DNA of 63,374 bases, counting the filler, from Rhabdomonas costata (lineage: Eukaryota): NCBI GenBank assembly GCA_019059605.1. It is 43 parts of 43 records of this genome, joined end to end, with 100 filler letters (N's around TTAATTAATTAA, not from the genome) between each part and the next. Parts side by side here need not be neighbours in the genome. Positions count along the whole stretch, not along the records: positions 45,765 to 47,142 come from JAHMHO010017789.1; 42 more parts are not named here. One strand, given 5' to 3'. The notes under the pieces are model-generated. The model saw only the letters and a program-made list of their open reading frames with translations, made no database searches and was not told the origin of the DNA. The translations under genes and the position numbers were made by a program. Shown here piece by piece: positions 253 to 63,331 of this stretch. Numbering within the stretch: the stretch's first letter is position 1; every line of letters starts with the position of its first letter.

Positions 253-1068
253 TGGTTCGTTCCACAGCCACAAGGCGCTTCCACTCACTGAACCCGAAGA
301 GGAATGCCGAAGAGGGAACTCAGACTGACGTCGGTACGTTCCTCCTCTTGACGTCGTGACTCTCGGTGCCTCGAGTCCCTCCTCTTTGTGTGGGTCGCTT
401 CACCACCCTAAGGATGGTTACGCTCACTGGGTCAACTCAATGCATAGACGTCAGCATTCTCGGTGCCTCGAATGCTTTCTCTGTATGTTGGCTCGCTCCA
501 CCGCTGTCACGGCTACGCTCACAGGTTCACAATCGCCCTATCGTCGCTACGCTCCTCAATGTCCTCATGTTCTCAATCAATGGCTGTATTCTGGTCACTC
601 CGACTCTCACTCGCATCAGCTCGTTCGTGTCTTCGTTCCTTGGTCGCTGCGTCACAATCGCTACGCTTATGTTCCTTGCTCCTGTTGGGTATTCTGTTTC
701 TCGGTCGTCGCTACGCTCCTTCCTCGTTCCTTGGTCGCTCATTCGCATCAGCTCATTCGCTCCTGACTTCAGGATTCTCAGGGCTTCGAATCCTTCCTCT
801 GATGGTGGTTCGTTCCACCGGCATAGGCCGCTTCCACTCACCCTACCTGCGGTGCTAGAGAGTAAGAGTAAGAGAGGGAAGGGGCTCGAAGGGTACTGAG
901 AGACCCAACAGTGGGGTTTATGCTGGTCGTGAGGTCGCTGCGCTCCCTCACTCCCTAGATGTTGAACTCAAAGGGTGCTGTCGGTCGTCACTCGCTACGC
1001 TCGTTCCTCTCGACGTCAGGATTCTCAGGGCTTCGAATCCTTCCTCTGATGGTTGGTTCGTTCCACCG
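253..1068 (+). repeat. Mosaic of shuffled short repeats, including a ~56-nt direct repeat (765-820 / 1012-1068)
   Basis: Recurrent TCGCTACGCTC-like, GGTTCGTTCCAC (x3), CGCTTCCACTCAC (x2), TCTCGGTGCCTCGA (x2), TCGTTCCTTGGTCGCT (x2) and TCGCATCAGCTC (x2); the long repeat contains the hairpin AGGATTC-N10-GAATCCT. Confidence 0.85.
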
Positions 1069-6020: not shown

Positions 6021-7045
6021 GCGGAGACGGAGAAATTCACGTTTCAGCCCATCACGCAGGAGGAAAAGCCCTATCCGGAAGGCCTGTTCAAGATGCTAAA
6101 CTTCATCACTCCAGAGGTGTCCTCTGTCTTGTCACGTCTACGAGTGCCTCTGCTTTTTTCCTGCTGCTTGCTGCCAGGAAAAAAAAGTTGGATGAGGTAA
6201 TCTTCCGAAGGGGCACTGTGCAAATAAAAATGTCAAAAAAGCGTCCAACGCGACCACCTCCAACAGTGTGTTCATCTTTCGCGTCTCCGAGCGTGACTTC
6301 CTTGAATGCCTGTGCCTCGGCCCTGCGTCTGTCTCATTTCCTGCCGTTTAGCAGCGGCTTACTTACTTGCTTCCTGGTTTTTTCTTATACTCGTCGATAA
6401 ACCCTCCGCTGCGTTGGGGAAAGAAGCCGCAGATAAAAAAGGAAGAGCCGCCAAGGGGCAGGGGTGGGTACCGGCCTGAGGTTGCAAGGACCGGCCTACT
6501 GTAGCGTTTCTGGAGGCCCGCTGTGTATACAAAATACCCGGGGCATGTTTCGGCGTCGCCCTCCAACGTTTTGTGCTGGTAAATTTTTAGCTCCCTGCTG
6601 CTGATCACCTGTCATTCCCATCACTTTTTTATACTCGTTTACGCTATTGTGTTTCGCACAGCAGCTCTTGATCATCGCATGGTAACTCCGCAATTAACCT
6701 GTGCAGAGCAGACCAACGCCCCCCGACTCCAGACTACCCGTTGCCTCAGTTGAACGAACGAGCGGATAGTTTTTGAGAATTTCAAATTCCCAGAGAGGGG
6801 GATTTGAGCAGCAGCCCGTGTGGGGCCGACACTTTAGTGCGAGCAGTGTATGTTTGGGTGCATGTACGGGCGTGGTGCAGGAAGAGAGCATTTTGGCGGA
6901 CGAGATCTACCGCGAGAAGTGGTCCAGTGACCTGGCCCGCCGCACGCAGCAGTTCGGGTTCAAGTTTGTCCACCGCACCAGTGAGATCGTCCCGGCGGAC
7001 CCCATTCCAGAGTACTACACCCCAATCATAGCGAAGCTGTGCAGG
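6021..7045 (+). CDS. AlkB-family 2OG-Fe(II) dioxygenase, two exons (6021-6116, 6881-7045)
   Basis: PEGLFKMLNFITPE|EESILADEIYREKWSSDLARRTQQFGFKF fits the AlkB N-terminal pattern (PxGLxxxxxFIxxxEE...W...RRxQxxGxxx); GT-AG intron. Confidence 0.75.
6393..6561 (+). mobile_element. Structured dispersed element, copy A (diverged), in the AlkB-gene intron
   Basis: Shares AAACCCTCCGCTGCGT, AAGAGCCGCCAAG, CAAGGACCGGCC, GCGTTTC.GGAGGCC.GCTGT and TTCGGC..GCCC with the reverse complement of 46868-47137 and 62364-62619. Confidence 0.8.
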
Positions 7046-8926
7046 GTAGGGCTCAGCCCGTCAGTCTCTCCTTTCCTCGGTTTTTGATGAACTGCTTTTT
7101 GCTTCAAGCAGCCTGAGGCGGGCCGTGGTGCTTCCTGAACTGCCCCGATAAACGCAATCGCTTTATGATTTAATTGAAGCCCCATCTGCTTCCCCCCTTT
7201 CTGAATTCACGAATGCGTAAGATCCACTGAAAGCTCGTTCCAGGGCTAAAAGATCTCGAACAAGAGTTCGTCCGGACCCACACAANNNNNNNNNNNNNNN
7301 NNNNNNNNNNNNNNNNNNNNNNNNNNNNNTTAATTAATTAANNNNNNNNNNNNNNNNNNNNNNNNNNNNNNNNNNNNNNNNNNNNGTTGGGGTGGGGAAA
7401 GCAGCGAGTGGTCCAGCTAAGAAGAATGAGGAGTGGGTGGGTTGTGTGTTTGTGGGTGGGTGGCGTCCGACGGCGTTCGCTTTAGTTCTTTTTTCCCATT
7501 TGGAACGGTGCGATTGCCTTGATGCGGGAGCTGGCTTCCTTTGGGGGAGTGGGCTTCTGGTGTGGGCTGTAGCCTATTGTTTTGTGTTTGGGTGATGGTT
7601 CAGAGTCTTTTTTGTTAGGGACTGCGCTTTCCTAGTGAGCTGCATTTCCTTTGTGTGCTTTTTGTGCTGCAAATTTCCACAATTCCTGGGGGTGTTAGTT
7701 GACGCAACACCAGCGGTACAACACCACTGTAAGCACTGCGGTGGTTTTGGCTGGTGTGAGCTTCCACTCCACCGTTTTGCGTTATGCAGAGCTCAGGTTG
7801 CTCGAAGCAGCGCGGGCTCCCCTACTTTTTGAAGCCTCGTCGCGGAAGCTTTTCGGTTTCGCGGGCGGGTTCGTTCGGCAGTTCTAACTGAGCATCACCT
7901 GCCTTATGTAATGTCCGAGCCAAGACCCCAACTCTGGGCGCGCCACAGTGCCAGCCCTTGGCCTCCAGCGTCTTCTGGTCATCCAGAACAGCGCATCCTA
8001 CGGTCAACCCAAGGCGCACAGCTGCAGCAAGAGAAAGTCCGCACTGCGTTGGAACCGCATGGCGTTGCCGAAAGTCACCACGGGCAAACGGGCCCCGAAG
8101 AGAAGCTGCACGAGGAGACGCAGCGGACCCTGCGATGTTGTGTTTTGTTTGATTTTTCCAAAATTTTTATTATTTTTATTTTTTTCCAAATTATTTTTGG
8201 TCGGCGCCACATGAATGGTGAGAAGCTAAAGCTAAGCTATGGTCACCCGCACGTCGGGTAACTTTGGTATATCCCACAAGAAACACAAGAAGGGTGAGAC
8301 ACTTTGTTGGCATGGTTAACATAGGGAGACATTTTGAAATGCCCAAACCCCCTGGAAGTCCCTGAAAAGCGCTTTTTGGTACTTTTCCAACTCTCGCCTT
8401 TGTGGTGGAACGGGCGGGACACATGCAAAAAGTTAAAGTAAATCTTGAATAAATACTAAGACGTGATCACATCAAACTCGAAGAACCAGAAATAGCCACA
8501 AAAAAGATATGACCTAATCTTGAAAAAAAAATTAGGTTAAGATCCAACCTCCTGAAAACGCAAATGCTTTCAACAACACCTACGCGCTGGGACCAGCTGG
8601 GAGGACGAGAGGAAAAGCAAAAATGTATCCCCCAGGACGATTTCACGAATTTAACCCTTCACCCCAAAGGGAGATCGATACTGCGCCATTTCTTACCATC
8701 TCTTTTAGTTCTCCGCTTCCCTGCTTGTCCCTCCTTTCCTCATTTTCGGACACAAAACACCANNNNNNNNNNNNNNNNNNNNNNNNNNNNNNNNNNNNNN
8801 NNNNNNTTAATTAATTAANNNNNNNNNNNNNNNNNNNNNNNNNNNNNNNNNNNNNNNNNNNNTGTGTTGGGTGTGGGTGGGGTGTTGGGTCTGGTGTTTC
8901 CTTTCCTGATATCGCCTTTCCAGGCA

Positions 8927-9708
8927 AGGATGCCTCTGCATGGTTCCTTGGTTTCTGACGCTCAATGACGGCACCTCAGCAGTCTGAGCCACTGGCTGAC
9001 AAGCATCCCCCCCCTTCCTTCAATCGTTTCCGGACGAGATTCGGCGTTGGCACTGCAGCTTCATTTCTTTGGTTGCTCTGTGACTTACAAGGTGTGATGT
9101 CTGACTTTTGACAGGCCCATAGCAGGTCGCTCGCTTTTTCCATGCGAGTCGGCTAGTCACCTGGGCCAAGATGGCTTGTGTTGACCAGAACCAACAGACA
9201 GTGAGCGGTTTGGTGGTTAATTTTTTTGCTCCGTCTTCAACGCCCCCAGACCCAGTGCAGATCTTTTTTTTCTGAGTCGCCAATCACTGGGCCGAGACGG
9301 CTCCCCCTGTTCCGCGGCGGTTTTCAGGCCCATAGTTAATGTTGCAAAAATGGTACGTTTTTTATCCGTGAAACACTTTCTGTGTCAGTGTGGCGTGATG
9401 GAAATCGACCTTTTTTCGACCGTTTTTTCGACCGATGGGTAAGGTGGGGCGACACCTGGTGACGAACTCCGACTTTTGCTGTCCAAAAAAACATTGCTTG
9501 TGTTCACACACTTGTGAGATTTGAGTTGCGAAATTTGTAAGCGTTTACAATAACTGGCAAACCAATGGCAAACCAGCCCCCCCTCCCCCAGCATAAAATT
9601 CGGTTTGACCTGCGGACACACCTGACGTTGCGCTGGGTATAGCGAGGATGTCTCTGCATGGTTCCTTGGTTTCTGACGCCCTATGACGGCACCTCAGCAG
9701 TCTGAGCC
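8927..9708 (+). repeat. 64-nt direct repeat (8927-8990 and 9645-9708, 3 mismatches)
   Basis: AGGATGYCTCTGCATGGTTCCTTGGTTTCTGACGC...ATGACGGCACCTCAGCAGTCTGAGCC occurs twice, 718 nt apart. Confidence 0.9.
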
Positions 9709-21782: not shown

Positions 21783-22049
21783 TTGTGTAGATGTATTACT
21801 CTTCAGGAATAAACTTCAGTGATAAAAAAGCTTAGGAAAATTGTGAGGATTAGTTTGCAAGCATTAGCTGATGTCAGTGCTCCTTCTCCATTTTCCAAAT
21901 CAGGCGGATGTTATGCGCGACGCACCAGAGACATGAGGCAAAATGGAAAAGGAGCACTGACATTAGCTAATGCTTGCAAACTAATCCTCACAATTTTGCT
22001 AAGCTTTTTTATCTGAAGTTTATTCCTGAAGAGTAATACATCTACACAA
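21783..22049. repeat. Contig-terminal fold-back inverted repeat (21783-21894 / 21940-22049, 45-nt loop)
   Basis: Arms of ~110 nt are reverse complements with 3 substitutions and a 2-nt indel. Confidence 0.92.
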
Positions 22050-25251: not shown

Positions 25252-25382
25252 GTGCCTGGTCCAATCCTGTCCTGCCGCAGGTCCCATTCCCAAGCTTGTT
25301 CTCGGCCCTGTACGCCGCGGAGGTAAAAGTCACCGACGTGATTATGCAGCGGCTCCGGTCCTCGTTTTGCGTGACTTTGAAG
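25252..25382 (+). CDS. Probable exon of an unknown protein
   Basis: CAG acceptor, AAG|GT donor, frame AWSNPVLPQVPFPSLFSALYAAEVKVTDVIMQRLRSSFCVTLK. Confidence 0.4.
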
Positions 25383-25540: not shown

Positions 25541-25633
25541 CCTTGGGGTTGGGAATCTGCTGACCCAAGGACCGGCCAAGAAGCTTTTGTGGAGACCTGC
25601 TGTACATACTAAGGGCTGCTTGTTTTTTGCCCC
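25541..25633 (+). mobile_element. Structured dispersed element, copy C (3' part only)
   Basis: CTGACCCAAGGACCGGCCAAG.AGC.TTT..GGAG.CCTGCTGTA.ATAC...GCCC matches the 3' half of the other copies. Confidence 0.65.
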
Positions 25634-26579
25634 CAAGAGACGAAAGTTTGTGAAAATCAAAATAGTAGCAAAATTAGGAAGTGTTTGACGACGACGGCTT
25701 TTTTGAAGTCGTTTTGGCATTGATGTGATGCTCCGATCTTTCCGATTCTGTTTGGCAACTGCGGTCCAGACAAGTGCAGTTGTACCAAATACATCAATAA
25801 ATTGGAGCAGACATTGGAAAAAGGTATCCGTTTATGGCTTTTCTTGTGGTTTCTCAGCCAACCGAGTTCTCCAGCAAACCAGCACCAGGGACAGCACACA
25901 AAGGACCCTGTTTCCTACACAAACAGGGTCTCTGATCCCTTGTGCGGGATAGGCAGGTTTCCTTGCGGAAACCTCCGTTTTTCTAGCAACGGGGAAGGCA
26001 AGACAGCACAACAGCACAGCACCACGGGATGCAATGGGCGGGAAGGCGCCGTTCATAGTCTCTAAAAGTGGTGGGGCGGGCGGGAGGGCAGTGACACGTG
26101 TCAACAAAAAGAATGAGAATTCAGGACGGGATCGAGAGAATGAGGTAGCGCCAGAACAGGTGGGGAGGAGGGTGAGAGAAGGGAAACGAGAGAAAGCATC
26201 TGCGGGATTACATGCGGAGGGAGTGAGGGCGAGCTGCATTTTTTGGCCGTGAGCAAGACACAGACGAGAGATCCGCGGAAGGAGACGCACGTGCGCCCAG
26301 ACACGACCGGAAACTCTCCCTGTGAGAACACTGTGTTAAGCTGCCTCGTTGTCCACAACAACACAAACGTGAGACAGGCCAGAGAGTGCAGCTTGGCGGA
26401 GACAACAGAAGACGCTGTAGAGCTCTGCGCTTTGTTGGGATTCCACCCAAGGGGGTGCCTGCACAGCCACAGCGTAGGNNNNNNNNNNNNNNNNNNNNNN
26501 NNNNNNNNNNNNNNNNNNNNNNTTAATTAATTAANNNNNNNNNNNNNNNNNNNNNNNNNNNNNNNNNNNNNNNNNNNNG

Positions 26580-27830: not shown

Positions 27831-28315
27831 AGAACATTACAAAAAAGAGAAGACAGAAGGGGAAAAAAAGGAAAGACAACAAAAAATGGAAAAAAATCTC
27901 TTGAACTGAAGCAAGCGAAGGCAGATTTATGCGAACCGATTAGACAAACAAAACNNNNNNNNNNNNNNNNNNNNNNNNNNNNNNNNNNNNNNNNNNNNTT
28001 AATTAATTAANNNNNNNNNNNNNNNNNNNNNNNNNNNNNNNNNNNNNNNNNNNNGTGGTGGGTGTGTTTGGTTTTTGCTGGAACCACACACTTTTTTCAG
28101 CTTTGGAAGGGATGCATTTGTTGGTCGAGCGGAGAAAAGTTCAGTTACTTGGGTCTTCTTTCCTGTGAATTCACAACACATAGGGCTCTGCAAAAAAAGA
28201 AGCTTCCCTCCCTTGCATGAGGAGGACTTGATCAAAAGTGGCCAACACTGGCAAGCTCAGACACATCATCACAGAAGGGCTGATCTACGGTACAGCGTCA
28301 GACACCCACATGTAC

Positions 28316-29428
28316 CTCTGCAAATCTTGAGCTGCACTGCAGTGCTGGGACCACAGGGTTCAGGCTCTGAATAGCGTCCCGGAGCTGCACCAGGTACACC
28401 GCCAACTTCCGGAGGGGCCGAGTGATCAGCAGGTTCACCAGCACGGACATCATCACTACAAACACCACAAAGAACACCCCACCGAGCACCCCGACCACGT
28501 TGTTCAACTTCCAGATCTTCTGGAAGTAGTCCCGGTCGGGAAGGACGACCAGGATCCTCCAGTGCAGGTCACACAGCAGGGGGATGGGAATCACCAGCAC
28601 TTGGGCGGCCCCAAACGTGCTCAGGGCCATGCTCACCACCGCATCCTCGGGGGTGAAGGCGGGCAGCTGGCGCTGCACCTCGGACAGGTCCTCGGCTACA
28701 GTTCCCGGGCTGGAGGTGGAGTACTCTGCGACGGTCCCACCCTGCTCCAGAAAAAGCATCCCGCTGCTCTGAAGGAGGAACTGCGAGAGGTTCAGCTGCC
28801 GAGAGAACACCGAGAAGGGCACAAATACCGCGGCCACGCCCGAGGTCGAGTTGCTCACTACCATTGGCACTGAGAGCGCGACAAACTTCAGCCCAGAGCG
28901 GTTGGCCTCAGGGATTGAGCTGAACACTGGCGCCTTCGAAGCCAACGCGGCGGTGAACCACGGCTCACGGCGATACTCCACAGGCTCGGCAATAACGGCC
29001 GCCCCCCGAGACCCATCTGCATAGATGGGTATGCAGGTGACATTCTCCAGACTCCCTGGGGGACGGTAACAGATCCCAGACCCCTGATCAAGGGGAAACC
29101 GGGCTGCCCCGGCAGCCTCTCCATCCATGGTCACCCGCATCATGTACATCGACATCGTCGTCGAGTTGTCACTGAGCACCCTATAGGTGTAGTTCTGCAC
29201 ATCTGTGACGGAGGCATTGGGCAAGGTCCTGGTGGCGACCCAGCTGGCCAGGACCCACTTCATGGTGCGGAGGATCTCTTCGACCATTCGGCGCTCACTG
29301 ATGATTACCGCATGGTTGAACCTCCGCGCCAGGTCGCTGACCGAGTTGTTCGCGCCGGAGTACAGCAGGGCCCACATTGAGGAGAAGCAGCTTCCGGAGA
29401 GGATCAGCATCACCGCGACGAAGCACAC
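28316..29428 (-). CDS. Receptor with TM - extracellular dCache-like domain - TM - HAMP (probable cyclase/sensor N-terminus)
   Basis: Two TM helices flank EYRREPWFTAALASKAPVFSSI...FVALSVPM...GVAAVFV...WRILVVLP; HAMP start LITRPLRKLA; GTACAT donor. Confidence 0.8.
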
Positions 29429-31009: not shown

Positions 31010-31972
31010 TTTGTGGACATCGTAGTGCTCCGCGCATTGGTCGACCACCCGGAACAGGTACCCGATCCACCGCAGCAAAGCCTCCGCAGACAGCGTGTTC
31101 GCAATCGCCGAGAACTGGCAGATGTCCGAGAAAAAGATCGCCGCCTGTTGCACAACAACACTAAACCCCAACCTCAACCCCAACTAACAGAAATAAACCT
31201 GCCGTCCGGCAACAAAAGCAGGAATTTTCAAAACGACTGACGCAAGCCTTCACGGCAAACTGATGAACCAGCCCACGAAAACTAAAATGCGCCGGAAAAA
31301 ATGCACTGCCTCTTCACGCCGCTTCCAAGTGAACGTTTGCAAATCTTATTTTGAGAGCTGTCTCGTTTGAGTTTCAGCGGGCAGGTTCATCAGTCTGCCG
31401 TGAAGGGTTGATAGATTCCCGTGTTTGCTGCCGGACGGCAGGTTTATTTCTGTGAGTTGGGGTTGAGGTCGGGGTTTGTGTTGTTGTGCAATAGGCAGCG
31501 ACCTTCTTCCAGGTTTCCATCACCAAAGCATAACCCGGAGTACAGCCCTTCCAAGCCCTTATTATAGCGCGCAACACTCAACGCGATAAAAAAATAAACG
31601 CAATGACTCTTCAAGCCGTTTCCAAGGTATGCACGCTTGCAAATCACATTTTCGAGTTGAAAACTCGAAGCCACTGCTGCTGTTGTTGAGGAATCATGCC
31701 AAAGGAGAACGTCTCATCCATGTCCGGGTCATCGCCCAACGAAACTTGGGTCGGTGGGTGAAGAGGAGGTGGAGGCGGGTTCTACGCTCAAAACCCAAGC
31801 CTCACGGGGAGTTACAGACGAAAGCAATCACACTCAGCCGGAAACAGAAAGAAAGAGACACCTTGGGGATTTCCACGACGATCTGGGATTCCCCCGCCAG
31901 AAGCCTCTCCGACGCGAACTGGGGGTACATCGCGGAAACTAGCCTCTCAAAGGCCTCCTTCTGGACCAACAC
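31010..31972 (-). CDS. Class III adenylate/guanylate cyclase; exons 31972-31862 and 31144-31010
   Basis: RLVSAMYPQFASERLLAGESQIVVEIPK|AAIFFSDICQFSAIANTLSAEALLRWIGYLF...HYDVHK; metal-binding FSDI motif; phase-0 GT-AG intron. Confidence 0.88.
31130..31509. repeat. Diverged internal inverted duplication (31130-31276 / 31377-31509)
   Basis: ACAGAAATAAACCTGCCGTCCGGCA / TGCCGGACGGCAGGTTTATTTCTGT plus flanking blocks, with many substitutions and an indel. Confidence 0.9.
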
Positions 31973-38285: not shown

Positions 38286-38747
38286 NNNNNNNNNNNNNNN
38301 NNNNNNNNNNNNNNNNNNNNNNNNNNNNNTTAATTAATTAANNNNNNNNNNNNNNNNNNNNNNNNNNNNNNNNNNNNNNNNNNNNTGTGTTGAGAGAGTT
38401 TGGGGTTGGGGGTGAAGTCCATGAGCGATTTAAAGTATGTCCGTTGCATCCTTTTGTCATTGCAAGGAAGGCATTTTGTGAGCGATGGTTTCCTGTGATC
38501 AAAACATCGTGGTGAGCGTGTAATTGTGAGAATTATTGCAACCTGTGCGAATAGATCTTCGCAACTCTTCCGCTTGTTACTCTTGATACGATGTGAGAGC
38601 TCGCTGACCAACGCGGCTGCCTTGCGTTTCTGATAGGAAGAGGGTCAATATGTGTGGACCACCGCAGGTGTGGCGCGTTGAACGCATTGGTGAGGTTTTC
38701 GAAATACGTTCCCATTATGGCGGAAGCGTGCTTCCCGCGTTTCACAG

Positions 38748-39576
38748 GTTGGGAGATTGCGTGCTGAAGCGGGGAACGATTATGTTCTCCGACATCCGCA
38801 ACTTCACCACCCTCTCGGAGCGGATGGGCCCGCGGCAGAACTTTCAGTTTTTGAACCGCTACCTCCACGAGGCCGGGCCATGCATCCGCACCAAGCATGG
38901 GTTCATCGACAAGTTTCTGGGCGATGGAATCCGAGGTATCCGAGGCGAACCAATTTCAACGGCACAGCCACAGTTCATTTTGCAAAGCTCTCCTAACGAC
39001 ACAGGGGGCCAGGCCCCGGAATCCCTACTTTGTCAATTCCTTTGCTTGCGGTGAGGTCTTTTGATATGCTCGGTGGCCGAGCTAATAAATTTGGCTTTTG
39101 CTGTGTTGGTTGGTCCCACAAGACTTTTTCGCCCCACTGCTGATTATTGATCATTCTGTTTTATTCATATAGGCAGATTAAGAGTTACAAACAAGTAGAA
39201 ACTGTTTTTTTTCATCCGGTAAAGCAGAGGGCAATTACAAATGAAGGTGCGATATTCATGTGTATATGTTTGTTAATCTTCTGACTGCGCGCTTCTCGTG
39301 CTCTATTTCAGCCTGCTCCCGCGCAAACACTATCATAAGGCTTTCTTCGATCTTATTGGCTGCAACTGAGTGGGTCCTCGTGCCTTGTTTTACTCTCTTT
39401 CGCTGCTGGCTTTTAAAAAAGCCATCTTTCTGGATGCCAATGAGGCCGTCGAGGGAGCGCTGGCCCTGCTGAATGCCGTGGAGAACCTGAACCAAGAGCA
39501 GGCCAACTCCGCCTTTGCGTTTCAGATCGGGGTGGGCCTGCACACCGGGGATGTCCTGCTGGGTACCATCGGGGAG
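38748..39576 (+). CDS. Class III adenylate cyclase catalytic domain; exons 38748-38935 and 39422-39576
   Basis: LGDCVLKRGTIMFSDIRNFTTLSERMGPRQNFQFLNRYL...GFIDKFLGDGIRA|IFLDANEAVEGAL...QIGVGLHTGDVLLGTIGE; both metal-binding Asp and the ATP-specifying Lys (DK) are present. Confidence 0.95.
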
Positions 39577-39755
39577 GTAGTATCCTTCCTGTAATTATGC
39601 GTACACCCGTGATTTAGGTTTGACATTTTCAGGCTCATTAGATTGAGAATTCCGAAGTCATCATCTGCATTCCAATTGTGAGCCTGAAAATGTCAAACCT
39701 AAATCACGGGTGTACGCATAATTACAGGAAGGACACTACCTCCCCGATGGTACCC
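39561..39755. repeat. Contig-terminal fold-back inverted repeat (39561-39637 / 39679-39755), includes the exon end
   Basis: 77-nt arms, 1 mismatch, 41-nt loop. Confidence 0.92.
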
Positions 39756-39921
39756 AACAACNNNNNNNNNNNNNNNNNNNNNNNNNNNNNNNNNNNNNNN
39801 NNNNNTTAATTAATTAANNNNNNNNNNNNNNNNNNNNNNNNNNNNNNNNNNNNNNNNNNNNGTGTTGGGTGTGGTTGGGTGTTTGGGTGGATATGTGTAA
39901 AAAGCAAGTGATCCATTTCAA

Positions 39922-46527: not shown

Positions 46528-46867
46528 CTGATAACGGGAGCACCTACAAAGGTTTTGAGCTGGAGCCTGCGGAGGTGGTAAAAACTGTGAGTTCAAAACC
46601 AGCATCTGAGCCAACAAGACAAGAGCTCAGAAAATCTTTTTGAACACTGGACTTGTGAGGTTTTGCCGCTGACAAAATCTATCCAGATCAGGAGACAACC
46701 AAAAACAAGAAAAGTGTTTGCTTATCAAATATAACAACGGCAAGAAAAACAAGTGCGCAACAAGCAGAATTTGTTTTAAGCAAAGTAAAACGAGTTTCAG
46801 AGAGAATCCAAAACCAACACATAAATATATAAGTTGAAATAAAATGAAATTATAAAATTGGGGTTGA

Positions 46868-47137
46868 GGGCTAAGCCGAAGCAGGCCTCGGGTCTTTTGC
46901 ATATACAGCAGGCCTCCCGAAACGCTGCGTGGCCGGTCCTTGGGGTCAGGAGAGTCCCGACCTTTCACCCTCGGCCGGTGACGGTGCCGCTTGGCGGCTC
47001 TTTCGTAACCCTTTTGCGCCGCTTCTTGCCCACGCAGCGGAGGGTTTACGACAGCACCCACAACGTACTTTACAGCGAACCACCCACGCCGAAAGGGGCT
47101 CGGCAACTGGCTCATGGCTGCCTGTAGCCCACAAAAA
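46868..47137 (-). mobile_element. Structured dispersed element, copy B (most complete)
   Basis: Nearly identical to 62364-62619 over ~250 nt; lies upstream of the minus-strand acceptor at 46528. Confidence 0.92.
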
Positions 47138-48720
47138 ACACCNNNNNNNNNNNNNNNNNNNNNNNNNNNNNNNNNNNNNNNNNNNNTTAATTAATTAANN
47201 NNNNNNNNNNNNNNNNNNNNNNNNNNNNNNNNNNNNNNNNNNGGGTGTTGGGGCTGAAGAATTCATTTTGAAGAGCCTGCGATGAATAGAAAGGAGGCTA
47301 AAAATACATTTTCCAACACCGCTTCGTCACACAACCTATTGCGACCGACTTAAGCCTGGTGTCAGGAAACAGTGTTGGTACTGACTGCGCAGGTTCAAAC
47401 CAAACTTGCTTCCAACGTATTGCTTTTTCAATTTAAATGGGTTTTCAAGCTCCAAAGCCAAGAGAGGAAAACTCCTTAGTTGCTGAGCTGGGGCACAGTG
47501 GATCGAAGTCGCACTGCAATTTGCCATAGCAGGTGTGCTTTCAAGTTAATGCAATTGACAAACTCTACGGCGTGACAGCAGAAGTTCAGGGTTCTGCGAA
47601 AAAGAGAGAAAAGATTTGCGGAACATGAAAATGGCTCTAACGTGGGAAGTACCATTTTTGTACAGTATCCCCTCGAATCACTGCCGCTTACAACGGACCC
47701 GGTTGATCGGTCCTTGGTACAAGCCGTAGCGTCGTGTCAGATTCCCCTCATGCTCTTCCTCAACCTGAATGACATGGCCACGGCCAAAAACTGCTCCATG
47801 TTTCGGGTACCGCCCCTACTCGTGCCTCGAGACCTCACCCAGCCAATGTCCAGCTACTCAAGGTCCCTTATTACGCACCACAAGTCTCGCCTTGGGCGTG
47901 CGTCAACCGCAAGGTCTGGATTTACCCACCGACGGTTTTGATGGCAGCTATGCGGGGGTCCACCGAACAATGAATCCCACCGGGCGAACGCTCCAAAAGG
48001 ACGGAATACAAAAGCAACGTGGGTGAATGCTCTGGCCAGATAATCCAGATTGCAGTCTTCTAGGCCAACGCGCAAAAGTTCAGGTCACGACACAATAGAC
48101 CAAACGGAAAAATTACAATCATTGGCAAGAAAAAGGAAAACGTGGGGGAGGGGGGGAGACAGAACTACAGAACTAATTACAAGACCACACGCACACACAC
48201 ACCAGAAGAGACACACGGCACAAAAAAGAATGGCAGAGAGTGGTTTTCTCTCATTCTCTCAGACTGGCCCTGCGGGGTGAGGGCCTCCTCCAAGTTGACC
48301 GGATAGTGCTCGAGGGAGGAGGGGATGTCAGAGAGAGAAAAGAAAAATACTATGGCTGCCCCTTCGATTCCACGACCACGGGAATGGAAAGCGACTCGCC
48401 ACCACGGCGAATCTGCAGCGTGATCTGCTCCCCTGCAGAACAACATCACAACGATGGATGCAGAAGCGTGCATCTCCAGTACACGTGTACCCCCTTTTGA
48501 ACACCCTCCGTTGACACTCCGTTGACACGCATTCCAAAAGAATGCTGCATAGAGTCTACTGTCTGGTCCGATTTCCGTAGTCATCCTGCTGCACAGACCA
48601 CCCTCATGAAGGTGTCGAGNNNNNNNNNNNNNNNNNNNNNNNNNNNNNNNNNNNNNNNNNNNNTTAATTAATTAANNNNNNNNNNNNNNNNNNNNNNNNN
48701 NNNNNNNNNNNNNNNNNNNG

Positions 48721-48815
48721 GTTTTTTGAACTACAAAGACCAGATGCCCCCCCCAGAGACTGTCTCGGCCTCCCGGGACAAGGTGCGGGCATCTGGTCTT
48801 TGTAGTTCAAAAAAC
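48721..48815. repeat. Contig-terminal fold-back inverted repeat (29-nt arms, 37-nt loop)
   Basis: GTTTTTTGAACTACAAAGACCAGATGCCC / GGGCATCTGGTCTTTGTAGTTCAAAAAAC. Confidence 0.9.
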
Positions 48816-49371: not shown

Positions 49372-49903
49372 GGATGCCCGTACTTCTTGTCGTGGCGTCT
49401 GCCCCTGTGCCTGCCCCTGTGGGAGTGCCTAACCTGCCTGAGAGAGGCCAATGCCCAGAAGGTCGCCGAGATAGAGGCCGAGAAGTTGGCCAAGAAGGTC
49501 GCCGAGATAGAGGCCGAGAGGTGGCCAAGAAATGGGCAGAGGTGGGCGAGAAGGTGGCCGAGAAGTTGGCCGAGGTGGGCGAGAAGGTGGCCGAGAAGGT
49601 GGCCGAGAAGTTGGCCGAGGTGGGCGAGAAGGTGGCCGAGAAGGTGGCCGAGAAAGAGGCCGAGAAGGTGACCGAGGTGGGTGAGAAGGTGGCCGAGGTG
49701 GATGGAGCTGGAGAATCTGGCAGCGAGGACGCGAGCAAAGATGAGGAGACCGGCCCCTCGGACGCTGCGCTAGTGTGCTGGGCCTGTGCGCAGTGTTGCC
49801 ACGCGGGCCACGAGCTGAGGTTGCGTCCCCCGTGCGGCGCCCCGCAGCTGCCCAAGGAGCACTTCTGCCACTGCGGGGAGGCGAGCCACGACCTCAAGGC
49901 GCG
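49372..49903 (+). CDS. UBR-box zinc-finger exon interrupted by an AEK/VAE tandem repeat; apparent 1-nt deletion near 49519
   Basis: CPY...LWECLTC in one frame and VCWACAQCCHAGHEL...FCHCG in the other together form the UBR-box Cys/His pattern. Confidence 0.75.
49455..49700 (+). repeat. Coding minisatellite of 9/12-nt units (GGCCGAGAAGGT / GGCCGAGGT)
   Basis: Directly visible tandem units encoding VAEK/LAEV/GEK. Confidence 0.9.
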
Positions 49904-51356: not shown

Positions 51357-51418
51357 ATTTAAGAGGCACTCTGTGAAGCAAAAGGTCGACAAAGTCTTGC
51401 AGGCCGATTTGTTGCGGA

Positions 51419-51563
51419 TGGAAAATACAATGAGTGCTGTTAAAAAGAGAATGGCACAAATAGGATGCTGCCTTTTCAGGCGACCCCCGAATGTGGTGAT
51501 CACTGACACGGCAGCATCCTATTTGTGCCATTCTCTTTTTAACAGCACTCATTGTATTTTCCA
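51419..51563. repeat. Contig-terminal fold-back inverted repeat (54-nt arms, 37-nt loop)
   Basis: TGGAAAATACAATGAGTGCTG...GATGCTGCC / GGCAGCATC...CAGCACTCATTGTATTTTCCA, perfect match. Confidence 0.92.
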
Positions 51564-52666
51564 CCCACACNNNNNNNNNNNNNNNNNNNNNNNNNNNNNN
51601 NNNNNNNNNNNNNNTTAATTAATTAANNNNNNNNNNNNNNNNNNNNNNNNNNNNNNNNNNNNNNNNNNNNGACATTTATGCACCACTTTTTGTGGTGCTC
51701 TGTTCTGTGTTTACTCATCACGTGTGTGGGTCACAACACAGGATTTCTCTCTCACACTTGTAAAAGAAAAAGACAAGCAAGAAAAGCTGCAGCAAAACGC
51801 AAAAGAAAAGAAAATATGAATGTAAAAGCTAAATTTTTTTGAGGTGACCGTGATACTGAGAAAATCACGGATCTGTTTATCATCATGTAAAGGTGTGAAA
51901 AAAAGTCAGAACAATGGGATGATGCGTGTAGTGTAAACACAAATTAACAAACGAAATTTACTCATTAAAAATAGATGTGAAAATCGTTGCGCGGCTTTGA
52001 GCATCCCCATTGGTGATGGAGCTTTCCTTCGGTGTCCCCCCCCCCTTCTCTATTGTAGATTGTGCTCGTTCCCTTGGGATGGGTCATTTTCGGCGCGTGG
52101 CACCCATCGCTTTTGTGGACTTCCCTCTCCTAGTGTTTGTGTTGCGCTCCCTGCCGTGTGCCCTGTTGTTCTGATTGTTTTTTCCCAAAAGAAACGGTAC
52201 ATTGTGTTTGTTGGTTTGGCAGCCGGTTTATCCGCCGGACTTGGTTTTGCTGTTGCGTCACTGAAGCCTTTAGAACCGAGCGGAAGTTGTTTTTTTTAAC
52301 TTTTGTTGGAAACGCTGCCGCCCGCGCGTGAAATAATGCCCTCACTTGATCATGTCGTTTTTTCCCTTCCTCTTCTTCTTTGAATTTTTCAAAGTCTCAC
52401 AAGTCTTGGTCATACACCCGCACATGCTGTTACACAGCGTTTTAGGTTTTTCCCAACTGTTCGGAGACCTGCTTTGTTCCGTTGTTTGTATTTTAGATGA
52501 GTTTTTTTTCCCGGTTTTGAGATACGGGAGAAAGCGCAATAAATCAGTTTTTGCCGATAATTTATCCGCATCAGGCATCTGCGCCGACCTCTTTATTTGA
52601 GTGTGTTGGGTGCATACATGAGTATTTTTGCTTGTTTTTTTTAATTTTCGGACGGGCTGCGCGCAG

Positions 52667-62043: not shown

Positions 62044-63331
62044 TCGCGGAATTCCTGCTTCAATGGCTCTGCGAGGGAGGGGTAGGGCGTCGCCAGCAGT
62101 GAGCAAGCGGAAGTCCTCGATGTGGCCCAGTCCTGCTTGAACAGCCGCCTAACCAGCCCCACGTACTCTGTGGAGAGCTGCTCCGCGGGCAGTTCCCGGG
62201 CTATCGCATTGAGCGAAGAAACAGCCTGTGTGTAGTGAGCAAGTATGGCTGACAAACAGTGTTCCTAGAATGCTTTGCTCAATGCGATCAACCTTCATCT
62301 ACAAAATCAGCGCTTCGGCAGATACCCGAACCCCCCAGGCAAATAAAATGCGATCACCGTACAGGGCTAAGCCGAAGCAGGCCTGGGGTCTTTTGTATAT
62401 ACAGCAGGCCTCCCGAAACGCTGCGTGGCCGGTCATTGGGGTCAGGAGAGTCCCGACCTTTCACCCTCGGCCAGTGACGGTGCCCCTTGGCGGCTCTTTC
62501 GTAACCCTTTTGCGCCGCTTCTTGCCCCACGCAGCGGACACGACAGCACCCACAACGTACTTTACAACGAACCACCCACGCCGAAAGAGGCTCGGCAACT
62601 GGCACGTGGCCCACAAAAATCATCGCGTCGCACAAAAAGCACCGTACAGGCAGTAATTAATGAAGGCTTGGACTAATAATGGTTCAATAATGGATATCGT
62701 TCAATAATGGATCAAGGGCCGATTTTTTTATTATAAAAAACCATTTTGAGCCAAAAAAATAACGGATCATCAATAAATGGATGAAGTGGAACCCCTCCAA
62801 CTGCAGGAAATTGTCTATTGGCGCCCAGACGGCGCCAGAGGAAGCGGCAAAGTTCAACTGTGACATCTACACATCACCGCTAGTTGGAATTTTGATGGAA
62901 AAGCGGGGGGTAAAGCTGGAAAGATGGGGTGAAACATCCAGTTAGGATTTCCGGGAACAACCCCCTGGTGCTGTACGTAAAGTCCCCGGCTTGCGGACTT
63001 CAAGACACTTAATAAGGAGGAGGTGGGCCTCCAAGAGGAGAAAAGAAAAAAAGTAAGAATCCCAGAGACTTCGTTCACGCGTGTAACAGTCGATGACAAA
63101 CACCACATGAGTATGTATGCGGGAATCTTTCGGTAAAATGATCAAAAGCCGAAAGAATGGTGAGAACACAGAAACGCACTTTCTCTCGGACAACAGTTTC
63201 GTCCACATTGCAGAAGCTCTCTAAAAGTGGGAACAGGCAAGGCGCTTGAACAGGTCCACCGACGTAAGGAGTGAACTTCCCCAGCTCTTCAGCTAAGGCC
63301 AGCAGCACCTCATCTTCGTCATCTATACTGT
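62044..63331 (-). CDS. PPP2R1A: Protein phosphatase 2A scaffold (A/PR65) subunit; exons 63331-63180 and 62225-62044
   Basis: [26 protein letters not shown]...[20 protein letters not shown]...[20 protein letters not shown] closely matches PR65 HEAT repeats 2-4; GT-AG intron. Confidence 0.96.
62364..62619 (-). mobile_element. Structured dispersed element, copy D, inside the PP2A-A intron
   Basis: Near-identical to 46868-47137; lies within intron 63179-62226. Confidence 0.92.

What the first reader, a model, noticed from the sequence alone, without database searches (positions are those of the whole stretch)
46868..47137. Recurrent, highly base-paired intronic element, always sense to the host gene (copies 6393-6561 +, 25541-25633 +, 46868-47137 -, 62364-62619 -)
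Seen: four copies in ~59 kb of unrelated contigs. Two lie in well-defined introns (AlkB on +, PP2A-A on -); two lie next to probable exons on the same strand as the element. Read in the sense direction it folds extensively. CCTCC-GCTGCGTGG pairs at long range with CCACGCAGCG-tttcg-GGAGG, kept as CGCTGC/GTAGCG with a G-U wobble in copy A. GCGGC/GCCGC closes an A-rich loop. GGTCGGGA-ctc-TCCTGACC is a hairpin that copy C extends (CCTTGGG/CCCAAGG) and copy A shortens to its base (CCT/AGG). GCCGA-gccccT-TTCGGC is another hairpin, and TCGTAAACCCT/AGGGTTACGA is an alternative or pseudoknot pairing in copy B. There is no convincing ORF, long TIR, poly-A tail or obvious TSD. Inference: a high-copy non-coding mobile RNA (SINE-, retrozyme- or ribozyme-like, or spread through intron RNA), or a family of intron-encoded structured RNAs. 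I could not match it to hammerhead, HDV, group II domain V, C/D or H/ACA consensus by eye. Four of four in sense has a 1-in-8 chance probability, and the host strand of copy C is the least certain.
Basis: partly seen in the sequence, partly recalled or inferred. Interest (0 to 1): 0.75.

Follow-up and report, generated by a model that had tools for sequence, protein, structure and literature searches.

The report
Short interspersed retroposon-like repeat in introns
The four look-alike stretches are real copies of a short, non-coding mobile repeat, most likely a retroposon, that has landed in introns of an unidentified eukaryote; this is an ordinary kind of genome parasite and not a new class of structured RNA.

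Summary
The four copies are real, and no others occur in the window. The window is 43 contigs of about 1.4 kb joined by N linkers. C and D are 93.7% identical over 253 nt. A is an older copy starting further 3' with internal deletions, and B is only the last ~95 nt. All four share the 3' end (...GCCC) but differ at the 5' end. Copy D is flanked by a perfect 11-bp direct repeat, CCTGTACGGTG, which starts right at the 3' homology boundary; the positional chance is about 0.002. There are no terminal inverted repeats, no protein-family match and no Rfam or tRNA match. Whole-element folding is no better than shuffled sequence. Only a ~120-nt central domain closed by a 10-bp helix is mildly better. 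Covariation cannot be tested with three sequences. Sense orientation in an intron is proven for 2 of 4 copies (AlkB-type gene, PP2A-A), weak for B and unknown for C. Best reading: a non-LTR retroposon family, either SINE-like or 5'-truncated LINE tails. No genome or related sequence was available, so copy number and orientation bias stay untested.

The parts
62366..62639 (-). Copy D, the only copy with both ends on its contig: 274 nt between the two 11-bp direct repeats. It sits inside the PP2A-A intron, 540 nt from the donor and 140 nt from the acceptor.
62640..62650 (-). Upstream (5') copy of the target-site duplication of D, CCTGTACGGTG in element sense.
   Evidence: family D4: CACCGTACAGG on +, 11/11 identical
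62355..62365 (-). Downstream (3') copy of the target-site duplication of D. It begins right where homology to copies A, B and C ends, and its first 3 nt (CCT) equal the next 3 nt of the element in A and C (microhomology).
46862..47142 (-). It is 93.7% identical to D and its 5' end is cut off by the contig end at 47142.
6393..6569 (+). Copy A, an older and shorter copy, about 70-82% identical. It starts at ATAAACCCTCC, has internal deletions, and lies in the intron (6117-6880) of an AlkB-type gene.
6381..6394 (+). Upstream member of a 14-nt direct repeat around A (TTTCTTATACTCGT versus TTTTTTATACTCGT at 6625-6638, 13/14). This is a doubtful target-site duplication, because the downstream member lies 57 nt past the shared 3' end.
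25544..25638 (+). Copy B: only the last ~95 nt of the element, about 80% identical, followed by an A-rich stretch. No flanking repeat was found.
62419..62536 (-). Central domain of D, closed by the perfect 10-bp helix CGCTGCGTGG/CCACGCAGCG. It contains the GCGGC/GCCGC and GGTCGGGA/TCCTGACC hairpins.
62372..62412 (-). 3'-terminal hairpin of D (approximate bounds): AGGCCUG, a 19-nt A/U-rich loop, then CAGGCCU. It holds the one compensatory change seen (U-A in C/D, C-G in A). Its 3' arm is deleted in B.

Best explanation
The element is a family of short, non-coding interspersed repeats that spread by retroposition, that is, target-primed reverse transcription by a LINE-type enzyme. It is either a non-autonomous SINE-like element of about 275 nt, or the 3' ends of a longer LINE that were truncated at different 5' points on insertion.

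Shown:
- The copies are dispersed and have unrelated flanks.
- They share one 3' end and have different 5' ends.
- The one copy with both ends on its contig is bracketed by an 11-bp target-site duplication, with 3-nt microhomology at the 3' junction.
- There are no terminal inverted repeats and no coding capacity.

Inferred:
- The 3' part (the central helix-closed domain plus the terminal hairpin) is what a partner reverse transcriptase recognises, as in 'stringent' LINE/SINE pairs. This would explain why this part is the best conserved and why there is no poly(A) tail.
- The copies sit in introns simply because introns tolerate insertions.
- The apparent sense bias is a small-sample effect.
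For: 1. Four dispersed copies are found and nothing else in 59.7 kb.
2. C and D differ by 11 substitutions (5 transitions, 6 transversions) and 3 indels (10, 5 and 1 nt, 16 gap columns) over 275 columns. The flanks are unrelated and the reading frame is not kept.
3. All four copies end at the same ...GCCC[T/C]C. Their homology starts at four different places: model positions 4, 4, 97 and 159.
4. D has an exact 11-bp direct repeat whose downstream member starts at the 3' homology boundary. 11-mers recurring 200-340 nt upstream occur at 40 of 44,081 positions, which I group into about 7 separate loci. That gives roughly 0.002 for an 11-position window. An exact repeat of >=11 bp anywhere in the flank windows occurs in 40 of 1500 random placements.
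5. No inverted repeats lie at the ends of D or A.
6. There are no Pfam matches at or below E 0.1 in 6 sense and antisense ORFs over the element; the only hit was INO80_Ies4 at E 0.16, 12.5 bits against a cutoff of 23.9.
7. The contig holding C breaks inside the element, as assemblers do at high-copy repeats.
8. The review PMC3747384 (passages read) states that most LINE copies are 5'-truncated to 100-1000 bp, that many SINEs share a ~100-nt 3' tail with a partner LINE, and that stem-loops are common in such 'stringent' tails.
Against: - Only one clear target-site duplication exists. A's candidate repeat lies 57 nt beyond the shared end, and B has none.
- No partner LINE, reverse-transcriptase ORF or longer copy was found. 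A regex for the YxDD motif found no credible hit, and only 4 copies exist to compare.
- No Pol III-type head was found: ARAGORN found 0 tRNAs, and there was no 5S, 7SL or tRNA match in Rfam at E<=10. By eye, two T5 runs near D's 5' end would stop Pol III.
- D has no poly(A) or simple-repeat tail.
- No empty site or second genome was available to prove insertion.
- The 2 verified host genes (plus 1 weak case) all have the element in sense. This does not contradict random insertion, but it does not rule out a bias.
Confidence: 0.6

Rival explanations
1. It is a non-autonomous DNA-level mobile element of another class, such as an atypical MITE, a Helitron or Crypton derivative, or a deletion derivative of a larger transposon. 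Its internal hairpins would be incidental or would serve the transposase.
For: The repeat is short, non-coding, dispersed and rich in internal inverted repeats. It has a flanking duplication. No reverse transcriptase or poly(A) tail is seen (sequence).
Against: No terminal inverted repeats lie at the ends defined by D's duplication or at A's ends. An 11-bp duplication is long for most cut-and-paste families (recalled knowledge). One shared end with differing other ends is the retroposon signature. D's flanks do not show the A|T insertion site of Helitrons (the Helitron rule is recalled).
Confidence: 0.15
2. It is a family of functional, intron-hosted structured RNAs, or a self-cleaving or circular RNA element. 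These would be made from host pre-mRNA, which would explain the sense orientation.
For: Both verified copies are sense in GT-AG introns, and a third is weakly so. The central domain closed by a 10-bp helix folds better than shuffles: z -1.80 with 10 of 200 shuffles as good for D, and z -2.65 with 4 of 200 for C. A perfect inverted repeat of >=10 bp occurs in only 21 of 500 dinucleotide shuffles of D. In A this helix changes only to G-U pairs, and the 3' hairpin has one compensatory change.
Against: The whole-element folding energy is ordinary. The central domain was picked after seeing the helix, so its z-scores are post hoc. Covariation is not above control: 174 of 500 shuffles are as high, from 3 sequences. 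A lacks, and B truncates, large parts of the proposed structure. No Rfam family, ribozymes included, reaches its threshold. The best ribozyme row is a RAGATH-1 hammerhead on the antisense strand at 14.2 bits against a gathering score of 56.3, without the CUGAUGA core. D carries a target-site duplication, so it arrived by insertion. 2 of 2 or 3 of 3 in sense has a chance of 0.25-0.5.
Confidence: 0.08
3. It is an introner-type element that creates the introns it sits in.
For: It is a repeated sequence in introns, sense to the gene, in a eukaryote. Introner families are described as repeated intronic sequences with duplications at the intron borders (PMC11282704, passages read).
Against: The element is only part of each intron. 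D lies 540 nt from the donor and 140 nt from the acceptor of a 954-nt intron. A lies 276 and 311 nt from the ends of a 764-nt intron. The splice sites are ordinary GT-AG and lie in unrelated sequence. D's duplication is inside the intron, not at its borders.
Confidence: 0.02

Closest known systems
SINEs with a LINE-derived, non-poly(A) 3' tail ('stringent' SINE/LINE pairs, for example tobacco TS SINE with an RTE LINE, and eel SINE/LINE pairs; review PMC3747384, passages read)
   Same: It is short (~275 nt), non-coding and dispersed. It has a flanking target-site duplication, a conserved 3' region with stem-loops and no poly(A). Copies that start further 3' coexist with the full-length form.
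   Different: No tRNA, 5S or 7SL-like head or Pol III boxes were detected. No partner LINE is available. No terminal short tandem repeat such as (TTG)n is present.
5'-truncated copies of a LINE (3' UTR fragments)
   Same: The copies share a 3' end and have different 5' ends, at least three among four copies. Lengths of 95 to more than 275 nt fall within the 100-1000 bp stated for defective LINE copies (PMC3747384). A target-site duplication is present.
   Different: No reverse-transcriptase or endonuclease coding sequence is seen in any copy or elsewhere in the window. The longest copy is only about 275 nt.
Introner elements / MITE-derived introns (PMC11282704, passages read)
   Same: It is a repeated element found in introns in the sense orientation.
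   Different: It does not span the intron, does not provide the splice sites and has no terminal inverted repeats. Its duplication is 11 bp, not the 3-5 nt described there for two families (Micromonas 3 nt, Amoebophrya 3-5 nt).
Retrozymes and other ribozyme-bearing repeats (hammerhead, HDV-like)
   Same: It is a non-coding, structured, repeated element.
   Different: No ribozyme model of Rfam 15 matches on either strand at E<=10, apart from a 14.2-bit chance-level row. It has no long direct terminal repeats.

Membership tests
SINE (strict sense) | Short, non-coding, dispersed multi-copy element | tested here: met
   There are 4 copies in 43 contigs with unrelated flanks. No Pfam match at or below E 0.1 in 6 ORFs over the element (one chance-level row, E 0.16).
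SINE (strict sense) | Flanking target-site duplications of variable length | tested here: inconclusive
   D has 11/11 at the boundary. A has a 13/14 repeat, but it lies 57 nt past the shared end. B has none. C cannot be tested because of the contig end.
SINE (strict sense) | Head derived from tRNA, 5S or 7SL with an internal Pol III promoter | tested here: not met
   ARAGORN found 0 genes. Rfam gave no tRNA, 5S or SRP row at E<=10 on D, C or A. By eye, A/B boxes are absent and T5 runs lie near D's 5' end.
SINE (strict sense) | 3' tail shared with a partner LINE, or a poly(A) tail | not testable with these tools
   No genome is held, and no further copies were found in three public collections. 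D has no poly(A).
5'-truncated LINE copies | Common 3' end with varied 5' truncation points | tested here: met
   nhmmer model start positions are 4, 4, 97 and 159, and ends are 262-264. See also the alignments.
5'-truncated LINE copies | Longer copies encode reverse transcriptase and endonuclease | not testable with these tools
   Contigs are ~1.4 kb. No credible YxDD hit was found in the window (a regex only). Copy C runs off its contig.
MITE / cut-and-paste DNA transposon | Terminal inverted repeats next to a fixed short duplication | tested here: not met
   The repeat finder on D and A shows only internal inverted repeats and none at the ends.
Introner element | The element makes up the intron and supplies or abuts the splice sites | tested here: not met
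   D is 540 and 140 nt, and A is 276 and 311 nt, from their GT and AG sites.
Self-cleaving ribozyme / retrozyme | Match to a ribozyme covariance model with the catalytic core | tested here: not met
   There were no matches at gathering score in the window. At E<=10 the only row is a RAGATH-1 hammerhead at 14.2 bits against 56.3, on the antisense strand and with the core missing.
Conserved structured RNA gene | Significant covariation supporting a common fold | tested here: inconclusive
   With 3 sequences, 43 pairs show 1 compensatory change. The covariation score is 0.109 against a shuffled mean of 0.093, and 174 of 500 shuffles are as high.

The most novel reading that the evidence does not exclude
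The element is not a passive retroposon but an intron-adapted structured RNA module. Its ~120-nt domain closed by the 10-bp helix would be functional, for example as a processing signal, a protein-binding scaffold or an undescribed ribozyme. It would persist or spread preferentially in the sense orientation of transcribed introns. That would make it a new class of intron-resident mobile RNA in a poorly studied protist lineage.
Probability: 0.05. Interest if true: 0.65.

Novelty: new member of a known kind. Interest (0 to 1): 0.2.

Why it matters
If the main reading holds, this is a routine repeat-annotation result. It defines one abundant retroposon-type family at about one copy per 15 kb of this sample. 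Such a family should be masked before gene prediction. It probably explains some contig breaks in this very fragmented assembly. It could also serve as a marker for insertion polymorphism. It would matter more only if a genome-wide census showed a real sense bias in introns or a conserved fold. Four copies cannot show either.

Tried and rejected
**Unavailable or empty searches**
- Related copies elsewhere: an IUPAC core pattern that matches all four copies gave 0 hits in metagenome, prokaryote-genome and viral contigs. A pattern from the 5' head gave 0 hits in metagenome contigs.
- Earlier notes of this scan: nothing for this genome or sequence. The word search returned only unrelated findings.
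- Literature: three short stretches of the element appear in 0 papers.

**Organism**
- It was not identified. Two word-indexed protein searches gave nothing, and the protein atlas returned only bacterial Cache-domain clusters. I make no claim about the source.

**Ideas rejected**
- A 5S-rRNA-derived head (a by-eye resemblance in copy C): no 5S row in Rfam at E<=10.
- A telomerase-template reading of TAAACCCT: the motif is deleted in D and absent from B.
- Similarity between the 3' flanks of A and B (score 21, p 0.02, one of 6 pairs tested): it was not reproduced by contig-against-contig blastn, so I treat it as chance in T-rich sequence.
- A conserved ORF: the sense and antisense frames are open in C and D, but the indels between them are not multiples of three and A uses another frame. 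No credible Pfam match (one row at E 0.16).
- Partial copies at other contig ends: none, only 12-mers.

Full report
**What the window is.** The 63,374 bases are 43 contigs of 1372-1378 bp joined by N44-TTAATTAATTAA-N44 linkers. G+C is 51%. It is a eukaryote with GT-AG introns. No whole genome is held and sequencing runs could not be queried, so every statement about the family rests on this window. I could not identify the organism.

**The observation.** With copy D as query, blastn finds the following:
- C at 93.7% over 253 nt (E 2.5e-108);
- A in two pieces, 82% over 78 nt and 78% over 59 nt;
- B at 80.6% over 67 nt.

An nhmmer profile of the four copies finds exactly these four, with E-values from 3.9e-85 to 2.5e-24, and nothing else. 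A self-comparison of the window shows this is the only repeat shared between contigs. No further partial copies sit at contig ends. So the four copies are real and far beyond chance. That is about one copy per 15 kb of sampled sequence, which suggests a high copy number in the genome (an extrapolation).

**Anatomy.**
- C and D are a young pair. They differ by 11 substitutions (5 transitions, 6 transversions) and 3 indels of 10, 5 and 1 nt (16 gap columns) over 275 columns. These indels break any common reading frame.
- A is 70-82% identical. It begins at ATAAACCCTCC, which is model position 97 of 264, and lacks about 20 nt that include the GGTCGGGA/TCCTGACC hairpin.
- B is only the last ~95 nt, starting at model position 159.
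- All four copies end at the same ...GCCC[T/C]C, so the 5' ends differ and the 3' end is fixed.
- C runs into the end of its contig, so its true 5' end is unknown.

**Insertion signature.**
- D is bracketed by a perfect 11-bp direct repeat, CCTGTACGGTG in element sense, at 62640-62650 and 62355-62365.
- The downstream member starts exactly where homology to A, B and C stops. Its first three bases (CCT) equal the next three bases of the element in A and C. This is the kind of microhomology expected if a nicked target primed reverse transcription (inference).
- The upstream member lies 17 nt beyond the last base that can be compared with C.
- 11-mers that recur 200-340 nt upstream occur at 40 of 44,081 positions in the window. 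34 of those belong to one tandem repeat, so I count about 7 independent loci, one of which is D itself. This gives about 0.002 for a hit within 5 nt either side of a given boundary.
- Without the positional requirement, 40 of 1500 random placements have an exact repeat of >=11 bp somewhere in the two flank windows.
- A has a 13/14 repeat, at 6381-6394 and 6625-6638. Its downstream member lies 57 nt past the shared end, and its upstream member may itself be weakly homologous to the element, so I treat it as doubtful.
- B has no flanking repeat.
- Neither D nor A has terminal inverted repeats.

**Coding and known RNAs.**
- Six sense and antisense ORFs over the element match no Pfam family at or below E 0.1; the only row is INO80_Ies4 at E 0.16, 12.5 bits against a cutoff of 23.9.
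- Rfam 15 gives nothing at gathering score in the whole window.
- At E<=10 on D, C and A it gives only chance-level rows. The best ribozyme row is a RAGATH-1 hammerhead on the antisense strand at 14.2 bits against a gathering score of 56.3, without the catalytic core.
- ARAGORN finds no tRNA-like sequence. So there is no recognisable tRNA, 5S or 7SL head.
- By eye, two T5 runs near D's 5' end would terminate Pol III.

**Structure.** As a whole, however, the element does not fold better than dinucleotide shuffles:

| Sequence | z-score |
|---|---|
| D sense | -0.29 |
| D antisense | -0.11 |
| A | +2.43 |
| C | -0.79 |

- The one feature that stands out is the perfect 10-bp helix CGCTGCGTGG/CCACGCAGCG. 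A perfect inverted repeat of >=10 bp occurs in 21 of 500 shuffles of D.
- The ~120-nt domain this helix closes has z -1.80 in D (10 of 200 shuffles as good) and z -2.65 in C (4 of 200). This region was chosen after seeing the helix.
- The four 3' tails are unremarkable, with z from -0.74 to +1.31.
- RNAalifold on C, D and A keeps this helix, with two G-C to G-U changes in A. It also keeps a 3' hairpin with one compensatory change, U-A to C-G.
- The covariation score, 0.109 against a shuffled mean of 0.093, is reached by 174 of 500 shuffles.
- With three sequences, two of them nearly identical, a conserved fold can be neither shown nor excluded.

**Host genes and orientation.**
- Copy D lies in a 954-nt GT-AG intron (63179-62226, - strand). 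The flanking exons match human PP2A-A residues 46-100 (E 7.7e-15) and 98-161 (E 1.3e-10).
- Copy A lies in a 764-nt GT-AG intron (6117-6880, + strand). Exon 6021-6116 is 69% identical to residues 27-52 of protein P0001, and exon 6881-7045 is 60% identical to residues 55-107 of the same protein.
- P0001 is named AlkB by its source. 7 of the 8 top hits scanned carry Pfam 2OG-FeII_Oxy_2.
- Both A and D are sense to their host gene.
- For B there is only a weak RuvBL1-like exon on the + strand, about 160 nt upstream of the element (Pfam E 0.04; PDB E about 0.1, with 11 of 12 rows RuvB-like 1).
- For C, none of the 7 ORFs of its contig that I scanned matched anything.
- Two, or at most three, out of the same number in sense has a chance of 0.25-0.5, so this is no evidence of bias.
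- The element occupies only the middle of each intron. D lies 540 and 140 nt from the splice sites, and A lies 276 and 311 nt from them. It is therefore not an introner in the sense of PMC11282704.

**Interpretation.** The combination of features is the signature of non-LTR retroposition: a fixed 3' end, variable 5' ends, a target-site duplication of non-standard length, no inverted termini and no coding capacity. The review PMC3747384 (passages read) states three relevant points:
- most LINE copies are 5'-truncated to 100-1000 bp;
- many SINEs share about 100 nt of 3' tail with a partner LINE that recognises it 'stringently';
- stem-loops are typical of such tails.

I therefore read the conserved, helix-rich 3' two-thirds as the likely recognition module (inference). 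I read the family as either SINE-like or LINE tails, with confidence 0.6. Strict SINE membership fails the Pol III-head test, and LINE membership cannot be tested on 1.4-kb contigs. The rivals are an atypical DNA transposon (0.15), a functional intron-hosted RNA (0.08) and an introner (0.02). The remainder is unassigned.

**Novelty.** The three short stretches of the element that I searched for occur in no paper of the searched library. The element has no match in Rfam or in three contig collections. Repbase and Dfam could not be consulted. It is best filed as a new member of a known kind, or possibly as an already catalogued one. Interest is low (0.2). It would rise only if a genome-wide census showed a true sense bias or covariation.

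Noticed in passing
window 21783-22049, 39557-39759, 51413-51569, 48721-48815, 31130-31509: Five stretches are their own reverse complement (71-88% identity), and four of them sit at a contig end. They are either fold-back assembly or amplification chimeras, or real long inverted repeats at which the assembler stopped.
   Followed up: no
window 62605-62642: The 5' end of copy D holds a 19-nt tandem duplication at 74% identity (ATGATTTTTGTGGGCCACG and GTGCTTTTTGTGCGACGCG in element sense). Copy C appears to have a single unit before its contig ends.
   Followed up: partly
window 25639-25700 and 46800-46867: The sequence just 3' of copies B and C is A-rich (B) or A/T-rich (C) for about 45-60 nt, whereas D is followed directly by its target duplication. 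These could be degenerate tails or simply AT-rich intron sequence.
   Followed up: partly
window 25254-25380 (+): There is a weak RuvBL1 (TIP49)-like exon with a degenerate Walker A region (Pfam E 0.04; PDB E about 0.1). It may be a diverged paralogue or a pseudogene.
   Followed up: partly
window 28298-29428 (-) and 38608-39054 (+): There is a dCache_1 sensor-domain ORF followed by a transmembrane stretch, and on another contig a short adenylate/guanylate cyclase-like piece. The atlas neighbours of the Cache ORF are almost all bacterial clusters (92-100% Bacteria). This suggests receptor-type cyclase genes in this eukaryote.
   Followed up: no
window 733-824 / 983-1072, 8924-8990 / 9642-9708, and 49453-49697: There are within-contig direct repeats at 87% and 94% identity, and a low-complexity repeat inside open frames on both strands.
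   Followed up: no
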